Shown here: piece after piece, positions 3,256 through 29,247 of the stretch | How positions within the stretch are numbered: the first letter of the stretch is position 1 | How the letters are laid out: every line of letters starts with the position of its first letter | NCBI GenBank assembly: GCA_038255685.1 | Contig: JBBSLC010000002.1 | Location: forward strand, 1-44,843 | Reading direction: 5' to 3' | DNA length: 44,843 bases | From: Acidimicrobiales bacterium | GTDB lineage: Bacteria > Actinomycetota > Acidimicrobiia > Acidimicrobiales > CADCSY01 | Program-made: the position numbers and the translations under genes | Notes under the pieces: generated by a model | Seen by the model: the letters and a program-made list of their open reading frames with translations, nothing else | Told to the model about the DNA's origin: nothing | Database searches by the model: none

Positions 3256-4434
3256 ATGGCCGTCACCGAGGAAGCGCCGGCACCCAAGCGAGAGCGCTGG
3301 ACCGCGCAGTGGCTCGAGCTCTACGACGAGGTGATCACGTCGGGGCTGTGCACCGGGTGCGCGGGCTGCGTGATCGCCTGCCCGCACGACGTCATCGGCT
3401 ACGACCACGCCTCGGGGGGCTACAAGCCGTTCCACCTCGAGGAGGAGCTCGGGCCCGACGACTGCATCCACGGCCAGAAGGGGTGCACGAGCTGCACCCG
3501 GGCGTGCCCTCGCTTCCGGACGTGGGAGGCCGAGGCCGACACGCTGCTGTTCGGGCGTGAGCGCACCCCGGCGGAGGTCTCCGGCATCGGCAAGGACATC
3601 GTCCTCGCCCGGGCCACCGACCCCGCGGTGCACGAGGCCGGCCAGGACGGCGGGCTCGTCTCGGCCATCCTCCTGTGGTCGATGGAGCACGACTACATCG
3701 ACGCCGCGCTGGTGTCGTACCTCGAGGGCGACGGCACGACCTGGAAGGCGAGGCCCGGCGTGGCGCGCACGCCCGACGACATCCGGGCCTCGGCCGGCAG
3801 CCGCTACACGTACTCGGCCAACACCCTCGCCTACGACGAGGCGGTCGAGGGGGGCGCCGAGAAGATCTGCCTCGTGGGCATGGGCTGCCAGTCGAGCTCG
3901 CCGCCGGTGATGAAGGCCCGCAAGATCGGCAAGCTCGCCCGGCGCATCACGCTCAACATCGGTCTCCTGTGCTCGAAGACGTTCGACGACGCCATCTTCG
4001 AGGAGCTCTTCGAGGCGAAGTACGGCTTGAAGAAGCAGGACATGGTCAAGATGAACATCAAGGGCGTCTTCCAGATCTGGATGCGCAACGGCGACTACCA
4101 CGAGGTCCCGCTGAAGGAGTGCCACGCCTGGACCCGAGAGGGCTGCAACAGCTGTCCCGACTTCGCCGCCGAGCACGCCGACATCTCCACAGGCGGCATC
4201 GGCGCGTTCGGTGACTGGACGCTGACGATCGTCCGCACCGACATCGGCCGGGAGATCGTGGACGGCATGCTGCGCGACGGCGTGATCGAGACCCGCCCCG
4301 GCGACGACGACCCCGGCGCCATCCGCCTCATGCAGCAGCTCTCGATCAAGAGCCGCAAGCGCTGGCCGGCCACCGCTGTCGCTGCCCCCGGCCTGGTGCC
4401 ACCCCAGGTGCCCAAGGAAGCCGCACCCGCCTGA
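3256..4434 (+). CDS. Coenzyme F420 hydrogenase/dehydrogenase beta-subunit (FrhB/FdhB) family protein with N-terminal 4Fe-4S ferredoxin motifs
   Basis: Cys clusters CTGCAGCVIACP and CTSCTRACP, followed by FrhB-like N and C regions (GGLVSAILLW, GMGCQ, CNSCPDFAAEHADIS). Confidence 0.75.
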   Translation: MAVTEEAPAPKRERWTAQWLELYDEVITSGLCTGCAGCVIACPHDVIGYDHASGGYKPFHLEEELGPDDCIHGQKGCTSCTRACPRFRTWEAEADTLLFGRERTPAEVSGIGKDIVLARATDPAVHEAGQDGGLVSAILLWSMEHDYIDAALVSYLEGDGTTWKARPGVARTPDDIRASAGSRYTYSANTLAYDEAVEGGAEKICLVGMGCQSSSPPVMKARKIGKLARRITLNIGLLCSKTFDDAIFEELFEAKYGLKKQDMVKMNIKGVFQIWMRNGDYHEVPLKECHAWTREGCNSCPDFAAEHADISTGGIGAFGDWTLTIVRTDIGREIVDGMLRDGVIETRPGDDDPGAIRLMQQLSIKSRKRWPATAVAAPGLVPPQVPKEAAPA

Positions 4435-7680: not shown

Positions 7681-10650
7681 TCAGTCGGCGATGCGCAGGG
7701 CGACGGCGGGGCGGATCTTCGACGCCTGCTGTGCGGGGCTGGCCGTGGCGGCCAGCGTGGCGAGGAACGCCAGCGTGATGATCACCGCGAGCTGCACGTA
7801 GGGCACGCCGAACTCGAGGCCGTCACCGAAGGCGCCGCTCGTGAGCAGGCGCCAGGTCGAGATCAGGGCCAGGCCGGTGCCGAGGAAGATCCCCTCGAGG
7901 GCGACGAAGCTCGACTCGGCCACGAAGGCGCGTCGCACCTGCTTGGTCCCGAAGCCGAGCGACCGCAGCACCCCGACCTCGCGCCGGCGCTCGCGCACGG
8001 CCCGCACCATCACCACGCCGATCCCGGCCACGCTGACCACGAGCCCGAGCGACAGGTAGCCCTGCATCAGCCGGAAGAACTGCAGCTGCTGGGCGAGGCC
8101 GTCTCCAACCAGTGTCCGGAACGACGTCGCCGACATCCCGTTCTCGACGAACTGCCCGTCCAACCGCTCCGCCACGACCTGGGCATCGACCCCCGGCTCG
8201 ACCGTGAAGCGCAAGAGGTTCGTGACCGCACGCTCCCCCACGAGCGAGCGGAGCCCTTCGATGCCCATGTAGGCAGGGGCCTGGCCGAAGCTGGCGTCGG
8301 CGAGGGCAGCCACTCGGGCGATCCTCGTCATCCCTGTGACGGGATCCCGCACGGTGAGCTCGTCCCCGATCGACAGCGTGGCCGTCGGCGGACCGCCACC
8401 CTGCTGCAGGAAGAACTCGTCGATGATGATCAGCGAGGGGTCGCTGAGCAGCGCACGCCACGCTCCCTCCTCAGACCCGAGCTCGGGGAGGAACGCTTGG
8501 AGCGAGGGCGGCCCACCGTCCACGAACGATGCGTCGTAGCCGCCAAGGGGCCAGCCCTCGAACTGCGCGACATCGGCTTCGTCGCGCAGCGAGACGACGT
8601 CGAACTGCGCGCCGACCGTCGCCAGCGGGGCCACGGCGGCGACACCTTCCGTGGCGGCGACCGCATCGACCGGGACCGGGTTGCTCGCGTTGGAGAAGGC
8701 CTGGCCGTCGAAGCCGCCGGCGATGTCGGCGGTGAAGTCGTCGACCTGCTGGCCGAACACGCCGCTGAAGAGCGTGATCGACACGAGCGTGAACATCACC
8801 AACGTGAAGGTGGACAGGATCAGCGACGTCCGGAACGACTTGGCCAGCGGGTACGCGAGACCGAGCCGGAGGGACATGTTCTTGCTCCCGCCTCCAGCCC
8901 GGCGCACCACGCCGCCGATGACGGCCTGGTGGCGGCTCACGAGCACGACCCCGGCGACGCTGAGCACGACCCCGTCGAGCACGAACAGCGAGATGTCTGG
9001 GTTGGTGAACACGTCCCCGGCGACGTCGAAGCAGAACGTGGCCCACACCAGGCTGACGATCGCAGCCACGGAGTCGACCAGCTTCTTGGGCGCCCACCTC
9101 CGCAGCACGATCGCTGCGCCCATGGCGAGCAGGGGTGGCCCGATCAGCAGGGGCGCAGGCGAGCGCTCGGCCAGACCGGTGCTCGTGAGGAGCCCGCCGG
9201 CGGCGGCGACGAACGCACCTGCGACGACCGTGCGGTTCCGCTGGCGCACGACGGTCGGCTCGGGGAGGTCCCGGATGGCGCGGATGACGTTGAGGCGGGA
9301 GATCCAGAGCGAGGTGGCAAGGACGGTGAGCAGGGAGAACACGAAGCCGATGAGGAAGCCCTGCTGGATGCTGGCCGCGCTGGCAGTGAACTCCAGCTCG
9401 AGGGCGAACTGGCCGTCGCCTCCGAAGATGCCGGCGGTGACGGCGACGATGGCGCGCCCGACGCCGATGCCGGCGATCGTGCCCAGGGCAGCAGCGCCGA
9501 GGGAGTACATCCACCCTTCGAGCGAGAACGTGCCGACCAGCCCCGAGCGCTTGAGGCCGACGGCTCGGAGCATGCCGAGCTCGGTCTTCCGCTCCTCGGC
9601 GAGCATGATGAAGATCGAGATCAGCAGCAGGATCCCTGCGAGGGCGCTGAAGGTCCCGAGGGCGGTGAAGAGCTGGGTGAACGAGGCGCCCTGGGCGTCG
9701 GCGGCCTCGAGGAGGTCCTGCTTGACCGGTGAGGTCTGGCCGGTCACACCCGCAGCGGCCAGCGCGGGCTCGAGCACGTCGACGGTCACGGCCGCCGATC
9801 GGGCTGCGCCCTCGATGACGTCGCCTCGGTTCGAGACGGCGACGAACGAACCCGGAGGGGAGCCGGCGCCCGGGTCGGCACCAGCGAGCTCGGTGATCGT
9901 CCCTGGCGTCACGAAGAGGTTGCGCGACTGGCTCCCGAAGCCGAGATCGAAGCCGGCGACACCGCGGCGTGGCACGACCCGGTCGATGGTGAAGGTGCGG
10001 ATGCCGCCGTAGGCAAAGACCTCGACCGCGTCGCCCGGCTCGACCTCGAGGGTGCGCGCGAGGTCGGCGCCGATCACCGCGGTCCCGGGTCCGGGGGTGG
10101 CGCCGGAGATGCCGGTCGCCTCAGGATCGTCGCCAAAGGCGCGCGCCGCTGCGAAGTCGACCTCGAGCAAGGTGGCGTTGGGCTCCGCCCGTCGCTCGGC
10201 CCCCTCGACCGAGGTGGCGATGCTGGCGGCGATCGAGGCGATGGCGAGCACCCCGTCGACGTCGTCTCCCGGCGCCTGCTCGATGGCCGCGACCACCGCG
10301 GCACGATCACCGAGGGCGCTCGTCCCGATGACCTCGTCGACGGGGCCGAGCTTGGAGAACGCACCCTGGCGGATGGAGCTGCCGAGGGTGTCGCCGACCG
10401 TCGCCGAGCCGGTGATGATCGCCGTGCCGAGCAGTGCGCCGAGCAGGATCAGCGCCGTCTCCCGCGGCCGGCGGGAGGCGTTGCGGAGCGCCAGCCTGCG
10501 CAGCACCGGCTTGCGGGCGGCGACCACGAGGAACGGGATCGAGAGGACGATGACGGGGATCGGCAGGAAGCCGATGGCGACGAGCCCGACCGTGAGCACC
10601 AGCCCGATCGTCCCTGCCACGAGTCGTCCGAGACGGTTGGACAGGTGCAT
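7681..10650 (-). CDS. ABC transporter permease, duplicated FtsX/MacB type (989 aa)
   Basis: Two FtsX-like helix bundles are separated by large extracytoplasmic regions. The start ATG shares a base with the stop of the upstream ATPase gene. Confidence 0.85.
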   Translation of the reverse strand: MHLSNRLGRLVAGTIGLVLTVGLVAIGFLPIPVIVLSIPFLVVAARKPVLRRLALRNASRRPRETALILLGALLGTAIITGSATVGDTLGSSIRQGAFSKLGPVDEVIGTSALGDRAAVVAAIEQAPGDDVDGVLAIASIAASIATSVEGAERRAEPNATLLEVDFAAARAFGDDPEATGISGATPGPGTAVIGADLARTLEVEPGDAVEVFAYGGIRTFTIDRVVPRRGVAGFDLGFGSQSRNLFVTPGTITELAGADPGAGSPPGSFVAVSNRGDVIEGAARSAAVTVDVLEPALAAAGVTGQTSPVKQDLLEAADAQGASFTQLFTALGTFSALAGILLLISIFIMLAEERKTELGMLRAVGLKRSGLVGTFSLEGWMYSLGAAALGTIAGIGVGRAIVAVTAGIFGGDGQFALELEFTASAASIQQGFLIGFVFSLLTVLATSLWISRLNVIRAIRDLPEPTVVRQRNRTVVAGAFVAAAGGLLTSTGLAERSPAPLLIGPPLLAMGAAIVLRRWAPKKLVDSVAAIVSLVWATFCFDVAGDVFTNPDISLFVLDGVVLSVAGVVLVSRHQAVIGGVVRRAGGGSKNMSLRLGLAYPLAKSFRTSLILSTFTLVMFTLVSITLFSGVFGQQVDDFTADIAGGFDGQAFSNASNPVPVDAVAATEGVAAVAPLATVGAQFDVVSLRDEADVAQFEGWPLGGYDASFVDGGPPSLQAFLPELGSEEGAWRALLSDPSLIIIDEFFLQQGGGPPTATLSIGDELTVRDPVTGMTRIARVAALADASFGQAPAYMGIEGLRSLVGERAVTNLLRFTVEPGVDAQVVAERLDGQFVENGMSATSFRTLVGDGLAQQLQFFRLMQGYLSLGLVVSVAGIGVVMVRAVRERRREVGVLRSLGFGTKQVRRAFVAESSFVALEGIFLGTGLALISTWRLLTSGAFGDGLEFGVPYVQLAVIITLAFLATLAATASPAQQASKIRPAVALRIAD

Positions 10651-14642: not shown

Positions 14643-15254
14643 GTGCTGCTCGTCCGCCATGGCCAGACGCCGACGACGGGCAAGACGCTGCCGGGCCGCG
14701 CGCCGGGGCTCCACCTCGCTGACACCGGCGTCGCCCAGGCCGAGGCCGTGGCCGAGCGGATCGCTGCGCTGAAGCAGGTCGATGCGATCTACGCGTCGCC
14801 GCTCGAGCGCACCCGCGAGACGGCCAAGCCCATCGGCAAGGCGCGCGACCTGAAGGTCACCATCGACCGTGGGCTGCTCGAGTGCGACTTCGGCGAGTGG
14901 ACCGGGTCCGAGCTCAAGGAGCTGTCGAAGCTCCCCGCGTGGACGACCGTCCAGCGCTACCCGAGCGGCTTCCGCTTTCCGGGGGGCGAGTCCTTCGCCG
15001 AGATGCAGACCCGCATCACCGGTGCCGTGGCCACCCTCGTCGAACGCCATCCCGGAGGCGTCGTCGTCGCCGTCTCCCACGCCGACCCGATCAAGGCAGC
15101 GGTCGCCTCCGCCCTCGGGACCCACCTCGACCTCTTCCAGCGCATCGTCGTGTCGCCGTGCTCGGTCACAGCCATCAGCTATGGCGCCGCTGGGCCGATC
15201 GTGCTCACGGTGAACTCGATGACCGGCCCCCTCTCCGAGCTGGCGCCGTCATGA
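14643..15254 (+). CDS. Histidine-phosphatase superfamily protein, MSMEG_4193-type putative phosphomutase
   Basis: N-terminal LVRHG catalytic motif and SHADPIK. It is immediately followed by DUF3090 and a PI-kinase-like gene, which is the conserved trio. Confidence 0.75.
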   Translation: MLLVRHGQTPTTGKTLPGRAPGLHLADTGVAQAEAVAERIAALKQVDAIYASPLERTRETAKPIGKARDLKVTIDRGLLECDFGEWTGSELKELSKLPAWTTVQRYPSGFRFPGGESFAEMQTRITGAVATLVERHPGGVVVAVSHADPIKAAVASALGTHLDLFQRIVVSPCSVTAISYGAAGPIVLTVNSMTGPLSELAPS

Positions 15255-15313
15255 GCGAGCACAGCGAGCGTGGCCCGAGCGGCCCGGCCGCAGGCCGAGA
15301 GCGGATGACATGA
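15251..15313 (+). repeat. MIRU-like intercistronic repeat, copy A (20-codon mini-ORF MSEHSERGPSGPAAGRERMT)
   Basis: 60/63 nt identical to the reverse complement of 28241-28303. Its ATG overlaps the phosphomutase stop (ATGA, 15251-15254) and its TGA overlaps the DUF3090 ATG (ATGA, 15310-15313). Confidence 0.9.
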
Positions 15314-15831
15314 GCAGCTCGTTCGAGATGCCCGACGTCGACCGGTTCACCGCCGGCACGGTGGGTGAGCCCGGGGCCCGCGTCTTCTACATCCAGGCGG
15401 TCGCCGGTGCCCAGGTCGTGACGCTGCGCCTCGAGAAGGGCCAGGTCGCCGCGATGGCGCAGCACCTCGCCGAGATGCTCGTCGACCTCCCGGCACCGAC
15501 GCCGGACGAGATCCCCGACGACCTCGACCTCATCGAGCCCGCCATCGCCGAGTGGGTCGTCGGCCAGCTCGGCGTGGTCTTCGACACCGAGCGCGACCGG
15601 TTGCTCCTGCAGGCGGAGGAGGTCGGCGAGCTCGACGAGGAGGGCGAGCTCCTCCCGAACCCCGACGCCGGGTCCGCCCGCCTCGCGCTCACCCGCGGCC
15701 AGGTGGCTGGCTTCATCGTGCGCGCTGCCACCCTCGTGGCCTCGGGCCGCCCGCCCTGTCCTCTCTGCAACCGCCCGCTCGACCCCGAAGGGCACGTGTG
15801 CATCAAGACGAACGGGCACAAGCCGCACTGA
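15310..15831 (+). CDS. DUF3090 family protein
   Basis: Characteristic N-terminus FTAGTVGEPGARVFYIQA and C-terminal CPLCNRPLDPEGHVCIKTNGH. Confidence 0.8.
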   Translation: MSSSFEMPDVDRFTAGTVGEPGARVFYIQAVAGAQVVTLRLEKGQVAAMAQHLAEMLVDLPAPTPDEIPDDLDLIEPAIAEWVVGQLGVVFDTERDRLLLQAEEVGELDEEGELLPNPDAGSARLALTRGQVAGFIVRAATLVASGRPPCPLCNRPLDPEGHVCIKTNGHKPH

Positions 15832-26529: not shown

Positions 26530-27081
26530 CTAGGACCTGCGCCGGCGAGCGCTCCTGCGCTTCGAGACCCACAGACCGAGCGCGCCGCCGACGATGCCGA
26601 AGACGGCAGCGACGAGCAGGTTTGTCGTGTCGGATCCACCCTCGGCGCCGCCCGCCTCGGGCTCGTCCAGCGCTGCGGTGAGCGAGGTCGGCGTGCTCGG
26701 GTCGGTGACGGGGACCTCGATGGGGATCTCGGTCGTGCCCGGCGGGAAGGACGAGGAGACCTGGAGCGTCCACGGTCCGGACGAGTCGAGGTCGAGCGTC
26801 ACGGCGTACGCACCGGGCTCCCCTTGGCGCTCAGCGGGCGCGGCAGGGACCACCTCCCCGTCCGGACCCGTCGCCGCCACCTCGACGATCGCACCCTCAG
26901 CCGGATCGCCGTCGGCCTCGTGGGTGATGCGGATCCGGAGCACCACCCCACCCGGCGTCGTCTCGGTCACCTCCAACACCTCGAACACCGCCCCCCCGCC
27001 GTGGGCGCCGGCCGGACCGACAGGCCCACCGACCGCCACCACCACGGCCAGAACCACGAGGAGCAGCCGGAGCCGGCTCAC
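26530..27081 (-). CDS. Secreted Ig-like (FixH/YtkA-like) protein with C-terminal TM anchor and Arg-rich tail
   Basis: Signal peptide ending AGA-HGG, a beta-rich core (GAYAVTLDLDSSGPWTLQV), and a C-terminal LLVAAVFGIVGGALGLWV helix followed by SKRRSARRRRS. The GTG start overlaps the ArsA-like stop (GTGA). Confidence 0.6.
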   Translation of the reverse strand: MSRLRLLLVVLAVVVAVGGPVGPAGAHGGGAVFEVLEVTETTPGGVVLRIRITHEADGDPAEGAIVEVAATGPDGEVVPAAPAERQGEPGAYAVTLDLDSSGPWTLQVSSSFPPGTTEIPIEVPVTDPSTPTSLTAALDEPEAGGAEGGSDTTNLLVAAVFGIVGGALGLWVSKRRSARRRRS

Positions 27082-28244
27082 CGCCAGAGCTCCTCGCCCA
27101 TCCGCACCAGGCCGGCGAGGTCGAAGATGTCGCTCTCGAAGTACGGGACCGAGGCGATCACGTCCGGGGCGGCGGCGAGCTCCGATCGCTGCGTCCGCTC
27201 CCGCTTCGCTGCCACCTGGAAGTTGAGGAAGCTCTCCCCGACCTCCTGGAGGACCCGTGCGACCATGACCGGCTCCCCGATCGCGTCGGGGATGGCCGTG
27301 GCCAGGTCCTCGGCCTCGACGGTGAGGCGCGTGGCGGTGCTCGCAGCGCCCTCGTCGAGCAGGTACGACGGGAGCACCTTGTTCAGCACGAGCGCCCCGA
27401 GGTGCAGGCGCTTGGCGGCGAGGGCGCCGATGAAGAAGTCCGCCTCGTGCGCGGGGCCGGACTCGAGGGTGCTCACGACCACGAAGGTGGTCCGGCGGTC
27501 CTCGAGGACGCGCTCGACCGCTCTCGCCCGCTCGACGAACCCGTCGTACATGGACTGGAAGAGGATGAAGAACTCGGCGATGTCCTGGAGGAACGCCGAG
27601 CCGAGGATGCGATCGGCCACCTGGTAGAACGGCCGCGAGGCCGCGTTGACCAGCCGGCTCCGATACGGCACAAGCAGCCATCGCAGCAGCCGGCTGGAGA
27701 AGAACTCGGCCATGCGCTCGGGCGCCTCGAGGAAGTCGATGGCGTTGCGGGTGGGTGGCGTGTCGACGATGATCAGGTCGTAGGTGCCGCTCGCGTGCAG
27801 CTCGTAGAGCCGCTCCATGGCGATGTAGTCGTGGCTCTGGACGAACTTCCCGGTGACGTTCTGGTAGAGCGGGTTGGCGAGGATCGCGTCGCGCGTCTTC
27901 GCATCGGGTGCGTGCCTGCGGACGAGGTCGTCCCAGCTCTGCTTGGTGTCGAGCATCGCCGCCCAGAGCTCGCCCCGTGGCTCGAGGCCGGCTCCGGCGA
28001 ATGCCTCGTTGGGGACCCGCACCTCGACGTTGCCGAACTGCTCGAGGCCCATGGCGGTGGCCAGGCGCCGTGCCGGATCGACGGTGAGGACGAGCACCTT
28101 GCCCCCGAGGTGCACGGCCGCCATGGCACCGAGCGCCGCCGCCGTCGTCGTCTTGCCCACCCCACCCGAGCCACAGGTGACCACGATCTCCTTCGCCGCG
28201 AGCAGCTGCTCCAGCGTCGTCGGCGACGGGCCACGCTCGCTCAT
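27078..28244 (-). CDS. ArsA/Get3-family P-loop ATPase (second of pair)
   Basis: Deviant Walker A GSGGVGKTT and the ArsA-type fold. It is paired with a paralog, as for the Rv3679/Rv3680-type genes of actinobacteria. Confidence 0.85.
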   Translation of the reverse strand: MSERGPSPTTLEQLLAAKEIVVTCGSGGVGKTTTAAALGAMAAVHLGGKVLVLTVDPARRLATAMGLEQFGNVEVRVPNEAFAGAGLEPRGELWAAMLDTKQSWDDLVRRHAPDAKTRDAILANPLYQNVTGKFVQSHDYIAMERLYELHASGTYDLIIVDTPPTRNAIDFLEAPERMAEFFSSRLLRWLLVPYRSRLVNAASRPFYQVADRILGSAFLQDIAEFFILFQSMYDGFVERARAVERVLEDRRTTFVVVSTLESGPAHEADFFIGALAAKRLHLGALVLNKVLPSYLLDEGAASTATRLTVEAEDLATAIPDAIGEPVMVARVLQEVGESFLNFQVAAKRERTQRSELAAAPDVIASVPYFESDIFDLAGLVRMGEELWR

Positions 28245-28303
28245 GTCGTCCGCTCTCGGCCTGCGGCCGGGCCGCTCTGGCCACGCTCGCTGCGCTCGCT
28301 CAT
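28241..28303 (-). repeat. MIRU-like intercistronic repeat, copy B (20-codon mini-ORF MSERSERGQSGPAAGRERTT)
   Basis: 60/63 nt identical to 15251-15313. Its ATG overlaps the ArsA-1 stop (ATGA, 28300-28303) and its TGA overlaps the ArsA-2 ATG (ATGA, 28241-28244). Confidence 0.9.
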
Positions 28304-29247
28304 GTCAGCTCGCCAGCGAGGGCGTCGGCGATCTGGCGGGTGGCACGCAGGCCGTGGGTGCGGTTGAAGAGCTCGGGCACGTAGACGACGTCGAGGCCGT
28401 CGGGCACGCCCTCTCGGAGACGGGCGAGGTGGCCTGCTCGCGTCCGCCGCAGCGTGACCGCCAGGCGCGCGCCTTCGAGGACCGGTCCGATGCCTGCTCC
28501 GAGCGGGCCCTCCAGCTCCCCCGCTGCGTGGGCGTCGCGGAGCCGCTCGTAGGTCTCCTCCTCGCCCCGGCCGAACAGCTCGGGCAGCACGCGGTTCACG
28601 ATCACGGCGGCGACGTCGACCTTCGTCTCCTCAAGTCGCTCGATGAGCTCGAGCGACTCGGTGACGGGCATCTCCTCGGGCGCAGCGACGATCACCACGC
28701 CGGTGGTGGCCGGGTCCCGCAGGATCTCGAGGATCCAGCCGGTCTGCTCACGGATGAGGCCGACCGACACGAGATCGTTGATGGCCTGCGGTGCGTTGAG
28801 CTGGCCGACGATGTGGCCTGACGCCGGAGCGTCGACGATCACCAGGTCGTAGTGGCGCTCTCGCACCTCCCAGGCGAACTTGCCGACGATGACGATCTCC
28901 TTGACGCCCGGGGCGGCGTTGGCGATGAAGTCGAACGTGCGCGCCAGCGGCCCGATGCGGGCGAGGAAGGGGATGCGCACCTGCAGCCGCAGGTACTCCC
29001 GCAGCGACGCCTCGGTGTCCATCGACATGGCGAAGACGCCTGGCTGCACCTCCCGCTCCTCGAAGGAGGTGGGACCCGTCTCGAGGACGTCAGCAAGGTT
29101 GCCCTTGGCGTCGACCTCGCACACGAGCACGCGCTTGCCCTGCTGCGCTGCGAGGACGGCGAGGGCGGCAGCCATCGTCGTCTTGCCGACGCCTCCCTTG
29201 CCCGTGACGAAGAGGAGGCGTCGCTCGAGCAGCGGCACGCCGGCCAT
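28300..29247 (-). CDS. ArsA/Get3-family P-loop ATPase (first of pair)
   Basis: Walker A GKGGVGKTT and the ArsA-type fold. Confidence 0.85.
   Translation of the reverse strand: MAGVPLLERRLLFVTGKGGVGKTTMAAALAVLAAQQGKRVLVCEVDAKGNLADVLETGPTSFEEREVQPGVFAMSMDTEASLREYLRLQVRIPFLARIGPLARTFDFIANAAPGVKEIVIVGKFAWEVRERHYDLVIVDAPASGHIVGQLNAPQAINDLVSVGLIREQTGWILEILRDPATTGVVIVAAPEEMPVTESLELIERLEETKVDVAAVIVNRVLPELFGRGEEETYERLRDAHAAGELEGPLGAGIGPVLEGARLAVTLRRTRAGHLARLREGVPDGLDVVYVPELFNRTHGLRATRQIADALAGELT

What the first reader, a model, noticed from the sequence alone, without database searches (positions are those of the whole stretch)
15251..15313. MIRU-like 63-nt intercistronic mini-ORF element present in two unrelated operons (copy A)
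The sequence ATGAGCGAGCACAGCGAGCGTGGCCCGAGCGGCCCGGCCGCAGGCCGAGAGCGGATGACATGA fills the gap between the phosphomutase and DUF3090 genes exactly. Its ATG overlaps the upstream TGA (ATGA) and its TGA overlaps the downstream ATG (ATGA). It therefore forms a 20-codon relay ORF (MSEHSERGPSGPAAGRERMT). The reverse complement of 28241-28303, between two ArsA-like genes 13 kb away on the other strand, is 60/63 identical and has the same double-ATGA architecture. All three differences are non-synonymous (H/R, P/Q, M/T), which points to a nucleotide-level element rather than a selected peptide. The element starts with a 9-nt tandem (AGCGAGCRC AGCGAGCGT) and contains a CGGCC-GCA-GGCCG hairpin. As far as I recall, this design defines mycobacterial interspersed repetitive units: an intra-operon repeat carrying a small ORF whose ends overlap the flanking genes. 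I am not aware of it being described for genomes of this type.
Basis: partly seen in the sequence, partly recalled or inferred. Interest (0 to 1): 0.85.

Follow-up and report, generated by a model that had tools for sequence, protein, structure and literature searches.

The report
Relay mini-ORF repeat between operon genes
The 63-base sequence is a real member of a large, apparently undescribed family of short repeats in Acidimicrobiia bacteria that sit exactly on stop/start overlaps between operon genes, each with a phased mini reading frame that probably keeps the genes translationally linked, much like mycobacterial MIRUs.

Summary
The two 63-mers (15251-15313 +, 28241-28303 -) are 60/63 identical. 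Each runs ATGA...ATGA between co-directional genes (His_Phos_1 to DUF3090; ArsA to ArsA) and encodes a 20-codon ORF.

They belong to a large family. I found 187 copies in 137 sequences, almost all from Acidimicrobiia MAGs or metagenomes. Each unit has this layout: NTGAGCGAGCG, an optional hairpin, an invariant 24-mer (AGCGAGCGKGGCCCGAGCGGCCCG), a perfect hairpin with a GNA triloop that changes by compensatory substitutions, a purine-rich RRGAG 8-9 nt before an NTG(A) start.

- Unit length is 3n+2 in 79 of 103 units, across 15 length classes.
- The invariant core is translated in all three frames in different subfamilies, so the DNA is conserved, not the peptide.
- The ORF only has to stay open and in phase.
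- Orientation always follows the flanking genes.
- Orthologous junctions in relatives carry 0, 1 or 2 units, and empty sites are plain NTGA overlaps.

The best reading is a MIRU-analogous, probably mobile, relay element that preserves translational coupling. It is not a MIRU by sequence, it has dyad symmetry, and its host is different. It matches no Rfam family, and my literature searches found no description of it. Translation of the mini-ORF and the copying mechanism are untested.

The parts
15251..15313 (+). Copy A: one 59-nt unit plus the terminal ATGA. It encodes a 20-codon relay ORF (MSEHSERGPSGPAAGRERMT).
15251..15254 (+). 5' ATGA. The TGA is the stop of His_Phos_1 (14643-15254) and the ATG is the start of the mini-ORF.
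   Evidence: an empty orthologous site (L137) has a single GTGA here
15263..15286 (+). Family-invariant 24-nt core AGCGAGCGTGGCCCGAGCGGCCCG. It contains the possible GGCC/GGCC helix H2.
15285..15297 (+). Hairpin H3: CGGCC-GCA-GGCCG, a perfect stem with a GNA triloop closed by a C-G pair.
   Evidence: 63 distinct compensated stems across the family
15297..15301 (+). Purine-rich GAGAG, a Shine-Dalgarno-like motif 8 nt before the DUF3090 ATG.
   Evidence: RRGAG lies 8-9 nt before the start in 78 of 103 units; its function is inferred
15310..15313 (+). 3' ATGA. The TGA is the stop of the mini-ORF and the ATG is the start of DUF3090 (15310-15831).
28241..28303 (-). Copy B: one 59-nt unit plus the terminal ATGA, between the two ArsA-like genes. 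It encodes the relay ORF MSERSERGQSGPAAGRERTT. Core at 28291-28268; hairpin at 28269-28257.
28227..28244 (-). The first 18 nt of the downstream ArsA gene (ATGAGCGAGCGTGGCCCG) are identical to the start of a 50-nt unit. This is probably a partial unit fused in frame, giving the N-terminus MSERGP.
   Evidence: orthologues begin MTRAGTTP or MARTGSG
14643..15254 (+). Upstream gene of copy A (His_Phos_1, phosphomutase family).
15310..15831 (+). Downstream gene of copy A (DUF3090).
28300..29247 (-). Upstream gene of copy B (ArsA_ATPase family).
27078..28244 (-). Downstream gene of copy B (ArsA_ATPase family).

Best explanation
Both 63-mers are minimal members of a family of short (50-104 nt), interspersed and often tandem intercistronic repeats in Acidimicrobiia. 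Each unit works as a portable stop-start junction.

1. Its first four bases, NTGA, coincide with the TGA stop of the upstream gene and provide an overlapping start codon.
2. The unit stays open in that frame for about 16-35 codons.
3. Near its 3' end, a purine-rich RRGAG lies 8-9 nt before a second NTGA. There the mini-ORF's stop overlaps the start of the next unit or of the downstream gene.

Inferred mechanism: a ribosome that finishes the upstream gene reinitiates on the mini-ORF. It translates through the unit, melting its hairpin, and terminates on top of the downstream start, where it reinitiates again. An insertion into a 4-nt stop/start overlap therefore leaves operon translation coupled and is tolerated.

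The nucleotide sequence is conserved for a non-coding reason. This applies to the invariant 24-mer and to the perfect hairpins capped by a C-GNA-G triloop. The most likely reason is recognition by whatever copies the element to new NTGA(GC) junctions and expands it in tandem. That machinery is unknown.

Shown: family membership, architecture, phasing, orientation, hairpin covariation, insertion and copy-number polymorphism, and nucleotide-level constraint. Inferred: translation of the mini-ORF, coupling, mobility, and the mobilising factor.
For: - Family size: an exact 23-mer scan of species-representative genomes gave 16 loci, 13 of them from Acidimicrobiia or Acidimicrobiales MAGs.
- Phasing: 103 motif-defined units have length mod 3 = 2 in 79 cases, 0 in 19 and 1 in 5. 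There are 15 different 3n+2 length classes from 59 to 104 nt. After collapsing to unique locus-length pairs the counts are 67:18:5, chi-square p = 3e-16. Units with length 3n sit in arrays whose total restores phase, for example L008 (60+59) and L095 (87+89).
- Ends: the 3' end is NTGA in 84 of 103 units, and the 5' N makes a start codon in 92 of 103.
- Relay chains: in 69 of 104 arrays with an identifiable upstream gene, an unbroken chain of -4 or -1 overlaps reaches the downstream gene.
- Orientation: 110 of 148 arrays have co-oriented genes on both sides, and none is antisense to both.
- Not a peptide: the invariant core is translated as SERGPSGP, ASGARAARR or QRAWPERPG in different subfamilies.
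- Hairpin: there are 63 distinct stems. 79% are perfect over at least 5 bp, against 7.8% of shuffles, and 82% have GNA triloops. On alignment A1 there are 16 double-change cells, and 0 of 500 shuffles reach the observed score.
- Polymorphism at orthologous junctions, locus A: empty NTGA overlap (P0004, L137), one 50-nt unit (L138), one 59-nt unit (window), two units (L008).
- Polymorphism at orthologous junctions, locus B: empty in four relatives, including the MAG that has two units at locus A.
- Constraint: element copies are 90-95% identical between the window and L008. The flanking genes are 83-84% identical, and 72% at third codon positions.
- Junction bias: downstream genes begin NTGAGC in 70% of cases, against 27% at 166 element-free NTGA junctions (p = 1e-8).
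Against: - No expression data exist. Translation of the mini-ORF and reinitiation are inferred from sequence only.
- 27 of 104 arrays break the chain. Many have CTGA at the 5' end, so there is no overlapping start. The relay is therefore frequent but not obligatory.
- RRGAG is a weak Shine-Dalgarno match in the commonest form, GAGAG.
- No transposase or other mobilising gene was identified, and there are no terminal inverted repeats.
- Copies from one genome are not independent, so the raw counts overstate the sample size.
- Both collection scans used exact words, so the core and one hairpin variant were partly selected by the search itself.
- Single-copy folding energies are not exceptional.
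Confidence: 0.72

Rival explanations
1. A host-recruited cis-acting RNA element, for example an intercistronic mRNA processing or stability site, or a structure that makes the downstream start depend on upstream translation. On this view it is kept because it regulates the operons, not because it is a tolerated selfish repeat.
For: - The core is more conserved than synonymous sites of the flanking genes.
- The hairpin is maintained by compensatory changes on the transcribed sense strand.
- Its orientation is fixed with respect to transcription.
- The hairpin abuts the RRGAG motif.
Against: - Unit number at the same junction varies (0, 1 or 2) among relatives whose proteins are 78-88% identical.
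- The element occurs in functionally unrelated operons.
- Tandem expansion is hard to explain as regulation.
- G-U pairs are almost absent from 63 distinct stems, which is unusual for selected RNA helices.
- No Rfam family matches.
Confidence: 0.15
2. A non-autonomous derivative of a single-strand DNA transposon system (IS200/IS605-type PATE or REP/RAYT-like). The hairpin would be recognised as single-stranded DNA and the element inserted next to a specific tetranucleotide (NTGA). The relay ORF would then be only a filter on which insertions survive.
For: - The stems are perfect Watson-Crick palindromes capped by C-GNA-G triloops. From my own knowledge, not tested here, this motif forms unusually stable DNA mini-hairpins.
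- There are no terminal inverted repeats.
- The boundaries lie at a fixed tetranucleotide, with an extended NTGAGC(GA) bias.
- Copies within one contig are homogeneous while hairpins differ between lineages.
Against: - There is no GTAG-type REP head.
- Minimal units have only one hairpin, and H1 and H3 differ in sequence.
- The element is never found in inverted pairs or in the opposite orientation.
- No Y1 transposase was seen, though I did not search for one systematically.
- None was found in phages, viral contigs or plasmids.
Confidence: 0.1
3. Purely local minisatellites generated by replication slippage at each locus, with no dispersal between loci.
For: - Tandem arrays of 2-4 units occur, with near-identical neighbours (u1-u2 in L008 are 95% identical).
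- Units are bounded by direct repeats (NTGAGCG).
Against: - Near-identical units lie at unrelated junctions 13 kb apart on opposite strands in the window.
- Copies occur at well over 100 different gene junctions.
- Locus B is filled only in the window lineage.
Confidence: 0.02
4. A conserved small protein or peptide gene, or a chance or assembly artefact.
For: An open 20-codon frame with start and stop codons is present.
Against: - All differences between the two copies are non-synonymous.
- The core is read in three frames across the family.
- Zero chance matches are expected.
- The element is present in independent assemblies from many projects.
Confidence: 0.01

Closest known systems
Mycobacterial interspersed repetitive units (MIRUs; Supply et al. 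1997, as summarised in PMC4473831, PMC12548453, PMC4213456, PMC6286618)
   Same: - Units of 40-100 bp lie in intergenic regions between co-directional genes.
- Orientation matches the flanking genes.
- A small ORF has ends that overlap the stop and start of the flanking ORFs, giving -4 coupling.
- Unit lengths are 3n+2 (53 and 77 bp in MIRUs; 50, 59, 71, 77, 83, 86, 89 nt and more here).
- Units occur in tandem with variable copy number.
- They are thought to be mobile and to insert at start codons.
- MIRU motif A also has AGGAGCGG-N5-ATG, like the AGGAGCGG variants here.
   Different: - Whole-unit similarity to two published MIRU sequences is not above shuffles (p = 0.3-0.7; local alignments p = 0.04-0.5).
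- MIRUs are described as lacking dyad symmetry. This family has one or two covarying perfect hairpins and an invariant 24-mer.
- The host is Acidimicrobiia, not Mycobacterium.
REP/BIME and REPIN elements (mobilised by RAYT)
   Same: They are short, abundant, extragenic palindromic repeats. Their stems differ between lineages but keep pairing. They are often located inside operons.
   Different: REPs have a conserved GTAG head, occur in both orientations and as inverted pairs, and carry no phased ORF or stop/start overlaps. None of those REP features is seen here.
Rickettsia palindromic elements (RPEs)
   Same: They are selfish palindromic repeats that survive because the insertion stays translatable.
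   Different: RPEs insert in frame inside protein-coding genes and become part of the protein. These units sit between genes as separate, phase-shifted mini-ORFs.
Synthetic bicistronic design (leader ORF with an embedded SD and stop/start overlap; mentioned in PMC12548453)
   Same: A short leader ORF carries the ribosome-binding site of the downstream gene near its 3' end and terminates on the downstream start.
   Different: This is an engineered part, not a natural repeat family. The comparison concerns mechanism only.

Membership tests
MIRU | Unit of about 40-100 bp in the intergenic region between co-directional genes of an operon | tested here: met
   Units are 50-104 nt. 110 of 148 arrays have co-oriented ORFs on both sides. 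Both window copies fit.
MIRU | Small ORF in the same direction as the neighbours, with ends that overlap their stop and start codons | tested here: met
   Both window copies run ATGA...ATGA. 69 of 104 arrays have unbroken overlap chains, and 79 of 103 units are 3n+2.
MIRU | Tandem repetition with copy number that varies between relatives | tested here: met
   Locus A carries 0 units (P0004, L137), 1 (L138, window) or 2 (L008). Arrays of up to 4 units occur. This was tested between species-level relatives, not between strains.
MIRU | No dyad symmetry (PMC4473831) | tested here: not met
   A perfect hairpin with a GNA triloop is present in 79% of copies, and there are 63 compensated variants.
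MIRU | Sequence similarity to MIRU motifs A/B or to MIRU292 | tested here: not met
   Global alignment against dinucleotide shuffles gives p = 0.29-0.73. Local alignment gives p = 0.04-0.56. Only two published MIRU sequences were available.
MIRU | Host in the genus Mycobacterium | tested here: not met
   Named loci and flanking-protein homologues are from Acidimicrobiia or Acidimicrobiales.
REP/BIME (RAYT-associated) | Imperfect palindrome preceded by a conserved GTAG-type tetranucleotide; found in both orientations or as inverted pairs | tested here: not met
   A palindrome is present, but there is no GTAG head and there is a single orientation relative to genes.
REP/BIME (RAYT-associated) | Cognate RAYT (Y1 transposase) gene in the genome | not testable with these tools
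   Only a 44.8-kb contig and locus fragments were available, and no complete carrier genome could be scanned.
MITE (DDE-type) | Terminal inverted repeats plus a fixed-length target-site duplication | tested here: not met
   The ends TGAGCGAGCG and GAGAGCGGR-N are not inverted repeats. The NTGA(GC) duplication is of variable length.
Rfam families (any) | Match to a curated covariance model | tested here: not met
   There was no match for the element in the window or in 16 copy-rich loci at gathering threshold, and none at E<=1 in L130 or E<=10 around copy A.

The most novel reading that the evidence does not exclude
A previously unrecognised class of non-autonomous mobile element, found in Acidimicrobiia MAGs and metagenomes, that targets the 4-nt stop/start overlaps (NTGA) of operons. 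It carries its own stop, phased open frame, ribosome-binding site and start, so that insertion is translationally silent. It would be recognised by an unknown dedicated factor through an invariant 24-nt core and a hairpin capped by a C-GNA-G triloop, possibly in single-stranded DNA. This would make it an independent, convergent counterpart of mycobacterial MIRUs, with enough copies to reveal how such elements move.
Probability: 0.4. Interest if true: 0.85.

Novelty: new variant of a known kind. Interest (0 to 1): 0.72.

Why it matters
How MIRUs spread, and whether their mini-ORFs really relay ribosomes, has been open since 1997. Study has been limited to a few dozen loci in mycobacteria.

This family offers a second, independent system with the same design. 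It has hundreds of copies and many length classes, and it shows clear signatures of selection:
- 3n+2 phasing;
- all three frames of one invariant core in use;
- compensated hairpins;
- filled and empty orthologous sites.

That makes two hypotheses directly testable: that the insertion is translationally neutral, and that the element targets NTGA overlaps.

It also has two practical consequences. Gene callers fuse these units onto the N-termini of unrelated proteins, which creates annotation errors. Copy number at such loci could serve as a typing marker for uncultured Acidimicrobiia.

Tried and rejected
- Folding energy: single-sequence folds of both copies and of a long unit are not better than shuffles. 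I rejected energy as evidence and used covariation instead.
- RNA versus DNA function from wobble pairs: apart from a constant C.A at the flanks, only five mismatches occur in the stems, one of them G.T. That is too few to decide.
- Rfam: four searches found nothing for the element.
- Homology to MIRUs: local and global alignments to MIRU292, to motifs A+B, and to two other M. avium subsp. paratuberculosis (MAP) tandem repeats are not convincingly above shuffles. One p = 0.003 among 24 tests was disregarded.
- Carriers on mobile DNA: there were no matches in viral contigs or phages, and only one marginal Streptomyces plasmid hit (E = 3e-3), which I treated as noise.
- Exact-protein lookup of the window's DUF3090: not on record.
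- Taxonomic breadth from a concatenated relay-peptide probe: 38 weak hits, almost without organism names. These were uninformative for taxonomy.
- More copies in the window: nhmmer found only the two. A third hit at 9127-9160 has E = 9.3 and was rejected.
- Window-wide checks: tRNA and tandem-repeat scans showed nothing related.
- Literature: searches for Acidimicrobiia repeats, 'MIRU-like', and intercistronic repeats with translational coupling found no description of this family.
Full report
**1. The observation**

The 63-mer ATGAGCGAGCACAGCGAGCGTGGCCCGAGCGGCCCGGCCGCAGGCCGAGAGCGGATGACATGA lies at 15251-15313 (+). Allowing up to three mismatches, its only other occurrence in the 44,843-nt window is 28241-28303 (-), with three mismatches. 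Dinucleotide shuffles give no chance matches. The repeat finder reports the pair as the longest inverted repeat in the window (71 nt, 93%).

Copy A fills the gap between ORF 14643-15254 and ORF 15310-15831. Pfam identifies these as His_Phos_1 (E = 8e-50) and DUF3090 (E = 3e-42). Copy B fills the gap between two ArsA_ATPase genes, 28300-29247 and 27078-28244, on the minus strand.

In both copies the first ATGA joins the upstream TGA stop to an ATG, and the last ATGA joins the mini-ORF's TGA to the downstream ATG. The two 20-codon products are MSEHSERGPSGPAAGRERMT and MSERSERGQSGPAAGRERTT, so all three nucleotide differences are non-synonymous.

Folding energies of either copy with flanks are no better than shuffles (z = +0.87 and -0.09). 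The window has 71.4% G+C. It is recorded as a whole 44,843-nt contig in the protein collection.

**2. It belongs to a large family**

- Thirteen are from Acidimicrobiia or Acidimicrobiales MAGs.
- Two are from one 'uncultured Actinomycetes' MAG.
- One is on a 2.6-kb contig binned as Caldimonas.
- One alphaproteobacterial locus shares only the 23-mer.

An nhmmer profile of the core then found 187 copies in all 137 sequences. They form 148 arrays: 120 single, 18 double, 9 triple and 1 quadruple. The window holds only the two copies.

Homologues of the flanking proteins that carry organism names are from Acidimicrobiales or other Actinomycetota.

**3. Anatomy of a unit**

Reading 5' to 3' on the strand of the flanking genes, a unit consists of:
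1. NTGAGCGAGCG.
2. An optional variable segment. In most longer units it is a hairpin (H1), for example GCCGGG-TAT-CCCGGC or CCC-GAA-GGG.
3. The invariant core AGCGAGCGKGGCCCGAGCGGCCCG.
4. A variable perfect hairpin (H3).
5. RRGAGCGGR: GAGAG in 50 units, AGGAG in 23 and AAGAG in 21.
6. A short spacer.
7. An NTG start, followed by A in 84 of 103 units.

The RRGAG motif ends 8-9 nt before the start codon in 78 of 103 units. That is normal Shine-Dalgarno spacing, although the commonest form, GAGAG, is a weak match.

The window copies are the minimal form, without H1. A 50-nt form also exists (L014 unit 2, L138).

**4. The reading frame is under selection; the peptide is not**

I defined 103 units purely by motifs, from the 5' NTGA to the first start codon after the 3' motif.
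- Length mod 3 is 2 in 79 units, 0 in 19 and 1 in 5.
- The 3n+2 units fall into 15 different length classes: 59, 62, 65, 68, 71, 77, 80, 83, 86, 89, 92, 95, 98, 101 and 104 nt.
- After collapsing to unique locus-length pairs the counts are 67:18:5 (chi-square p = 3e-16).

A length of 3n+2 is exactly what makes the ATG of one NTGA read into the TGA of the next. Units of length 3n occur in arrays whose total restores phase. Examples are L008 (60+59, one 40-codon ORF), L049 (40+40 codons) and L095 (87+89, 59 codons).

I then followed ORFs from the stop of a long, high-GC3 upstream ORF. Of 104 arrays with such an upstream gene, 69 reach a long, high-GC3 downstream ORF through an unbroken chain of -4 (NTGA) or -1 overlaps. 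In 57 of these the chain has one to four mini-ORFs, and in 12 it reads straight through. Another 27 arrays break the chain, often because the 5' end is CTGA and so has no overlapping start.

The invariant core is translated as SERGPSGP, ASGARAARR or QRAWPERPG in different subfamilies. All three frames are therefore in use. Conservation acts on the DNA or RNA, and the ORF only has to be open and phased.

**5. Orientation**

Of 148 arrays, 110 have co-oriented coding frames on both sides. Thirty have one co-oriented frame, with the other side undetermined (mostly contig ends). Three have an opposite-strand gene on one side. The remaining five could not be scored on either side. None is antisense to both neighbours.

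**6. The hairpin is real**

In 149 copies the segment after the core forms 63 distinct hairpins.
- 79% have a perfect stem of at least 5 bp, against 7.8% of shuffled segments.
- 82% of loops are GNA triloops (GCA 67, GAA 39, GGA 9, GTA 7), and in the listed hairpins these are closed by a C-G pair.

On an ungapped alignment of 13 long units (A1) I tested a structure with H1, H2 and H3. It is 96.6% paired and has 16 double-change cells. No shuffle out of 500 reaches the observed covariation score, and sliding the partners by 1-3 columns drops pairing to 24-49%. H2 (GGCC/GGCC, inside the invariant core) never varies, so it cannot be judged.

Apart from a constant C.A at the flanks, only five mismatches occur in the stems, one of them G.T. 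This fits a DNA-level palindrome or recently propagated master copies better than an old RNA helix, but it does not decide the question.

**7. Insertion and copy-number polymorphism**

*Locus A (His_Phos_1 to DUF3090)* in relatives whose DUF3090 is 73-83% identical:

| Relative | State at the junction |
|---|---|
| P0004 (82%), L137 (78%) | plain 4-nt overlap (L137: ...gccctcGTGAgcacg) |
| L138 (79%) | one 50-nt unit |
| window | one 59-nt unit |
| L008 | two units (60+59) |
| L139-L142 (73%) | a 29-nt spacer that is itself a 10-codon relay ORF with a small hairpin |

*Locus B (ArsA to ArsA)*:

| Relative | State at the junction |
|---|---|
| L143 (88%) | plain GTGA overlap |
| L144 (same MAG as L008) | 10-nt spacer |
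| L145 | 19-nt spacer |
| Actinospongicola halichondriae | 1-nt overlap |
| window | the only one with a unit |

Between the window and L008 the flanking genes are 83-84% identical, and 72% at third codon positions. The units are 90-93% identical across the two genomes and 95% identical within each. The sequence is therefore either constrained or recently spread.

Downstream genes that follow an element begin NTGAGC in 70% of cases and NTGAGCGA in 30%. At 166 element-free NTGA junctions in the same loci the figures are 27% and 6% (p = 1e-8 and 1e-5). Three readings fit this bias: the element prefers or duplicates a longer target; it enters by microhomology; or it donates the start and first codons of the downstream gene. 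The window's second ArsA gene begins with 18 nt identical to a unit start, whereas its orthologues begin differently.

**8. How it most likely works**

Shown by the data:
- the family exists;
- units sit on former NTGA overlaps;
- they are phased, co-oriented and open;
- they carry a purine-rich motif at Shine-Dalgarno distance from the next start;
- their non-coding sequence and hairpin are conserved;
- presence and copy number differ between relatives.

Inferred: ribosomes terminating on the upstream TGA reinitiate at the overlapping NTG. They translate the unit and terminate on the next start, which keeps translational coupling intact. This is the explanation proposed for MIRUs (PMC12548453). 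On this view the element is a tolerated, probably mobile or duplicative repeat. Its core and hairpin would serve its propagation.

The rivals are a host-recruited RNA element, a derivative of a single-strand DNA transposon, and slippage alone. They are weighed in the report sections.

**9. Comparison with known systems**

Published definitions describe MIRUs as follows (PMC4473831, PMC12548453, PMC4213456):
- intergenic and co-oriented with the flanking genes;
- containing small ORFs whose ends overlap the neighbouring ORFs;
- lacking dyad symmetry;
- 53 and 77 bp in the classical locus;
- confined to mycobacteria.

This family meets the design criteria. It fails on dyad symmetry, host and sequence. 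Alignments to MIRU292 (PMC7977185) and to motifs A+B (PMC6286618) are not above shuffles. One resemblance remains: MIRU motif A carries AGGAGCGG-N5-ATG, as do the AGGAGCGG variants here.

The element matches no Rfam family. It is absent from viral contigs and phages, with one marginal plasmid hit. Full-text searches found no description of it.

**10. Verdict**

The element is best filed as a new, sequence-unrelated and structured variant of the MIRU kind of element, found in Acidimicrobiia.

Four limits apply:
- There are no expression data.
- The mobiliser is unknown.
- Both collection scans used exact words and were capped, which partly selects for the core and gives lower bounds on abundance.
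- Many copies come from the same genomes and are not independent.

Noticed in passing
window 28227-28244 (-): The downstream ArsA-like gene begins ATGAGCGAGCGTGGCCCG (MSERGP), identical to the start of a 50-nt unit. Orthologues 86-88% identical begin MTRAGTTP, MARTGSG or MTARRAS. The N-terminus looks element-derived, as if a partial unit were fused in frame.
   Followed up: partly
L145 about 4001-4030: An orthologue of that ArsA gene starts GTGGTGAGCGAGCGGGG (MVSERG) although no complete unit is present. This could be a remnant or footprint of an element, or a target-like sequence.
   Followed up: no
L139-L142, 1472-1504: At the orthologous His_Phos_1/DUF3090 junction there is a 29-nt spacer, GTGAGGGGGCCCGTCACGGGGACGCCCGC|ATGA. 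It is itself a 10-codon relay ORF with a CCCG-TCA-CGGG hairpin. It may be a deletion derivative or a different mini-element.
   Followed up: no
proteins P0241-P0278: Database proteins from many unrelated Pfam families carry segments matching the element-derived peptides used as probe (e.g. SERGPSGP). Examples are LmbE, NuoK, shikimate kinase and SDR. Gene callers probably start these genes inside or upstream of a unit, producing spurious or real N-terminal extensions.
   Followed up: no
L004 (2.6-kb contig binned as Caldimonas) and L012 (Alphaproteobacteria MAG): L004 carries a complete unit, but the contig is binned to a betaproteobacterium, so it is probably mis-binned. L012 shares only the 23-nt hairpin word and none of the family's other modules, so it is not a member.
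   Followed up: partly
L108 4906-4991 (-): A c-di-GMP-II-GAG riboswitch (52 bits against a gathering score of 40) lies on a contig that also carries two element arrays. It is unrelated to the element.
   Followed up: no
Literature: PMC7977185 Table 1 (MAPK_TR_3, 57 bp): A M. avium subsp. paratuberculosis tandem repeat contains GCGAGCG followed by a CGGGC-GAA-GCCCG hairpin and GTGAAGCGGG. This superficially resembles the core, GNA hairpin and 3' motif seen here. The similarity was not significant in alignment tests.
   Followed up: partly
L049 (13.4 kb of JAABUN010000089.1) and other JAABUN01 loci (L023, L061, L063, L070, L085, L086): One metagenome-assembled organism is very densely loaded, with 11 units in 4 arrays within 13 kb. 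All are the minimal GGCC-GCA-GGCC type. Other contigs (L007, L108, L114, L133) mix subfamilies with different hairpins.
   Followed up: partly
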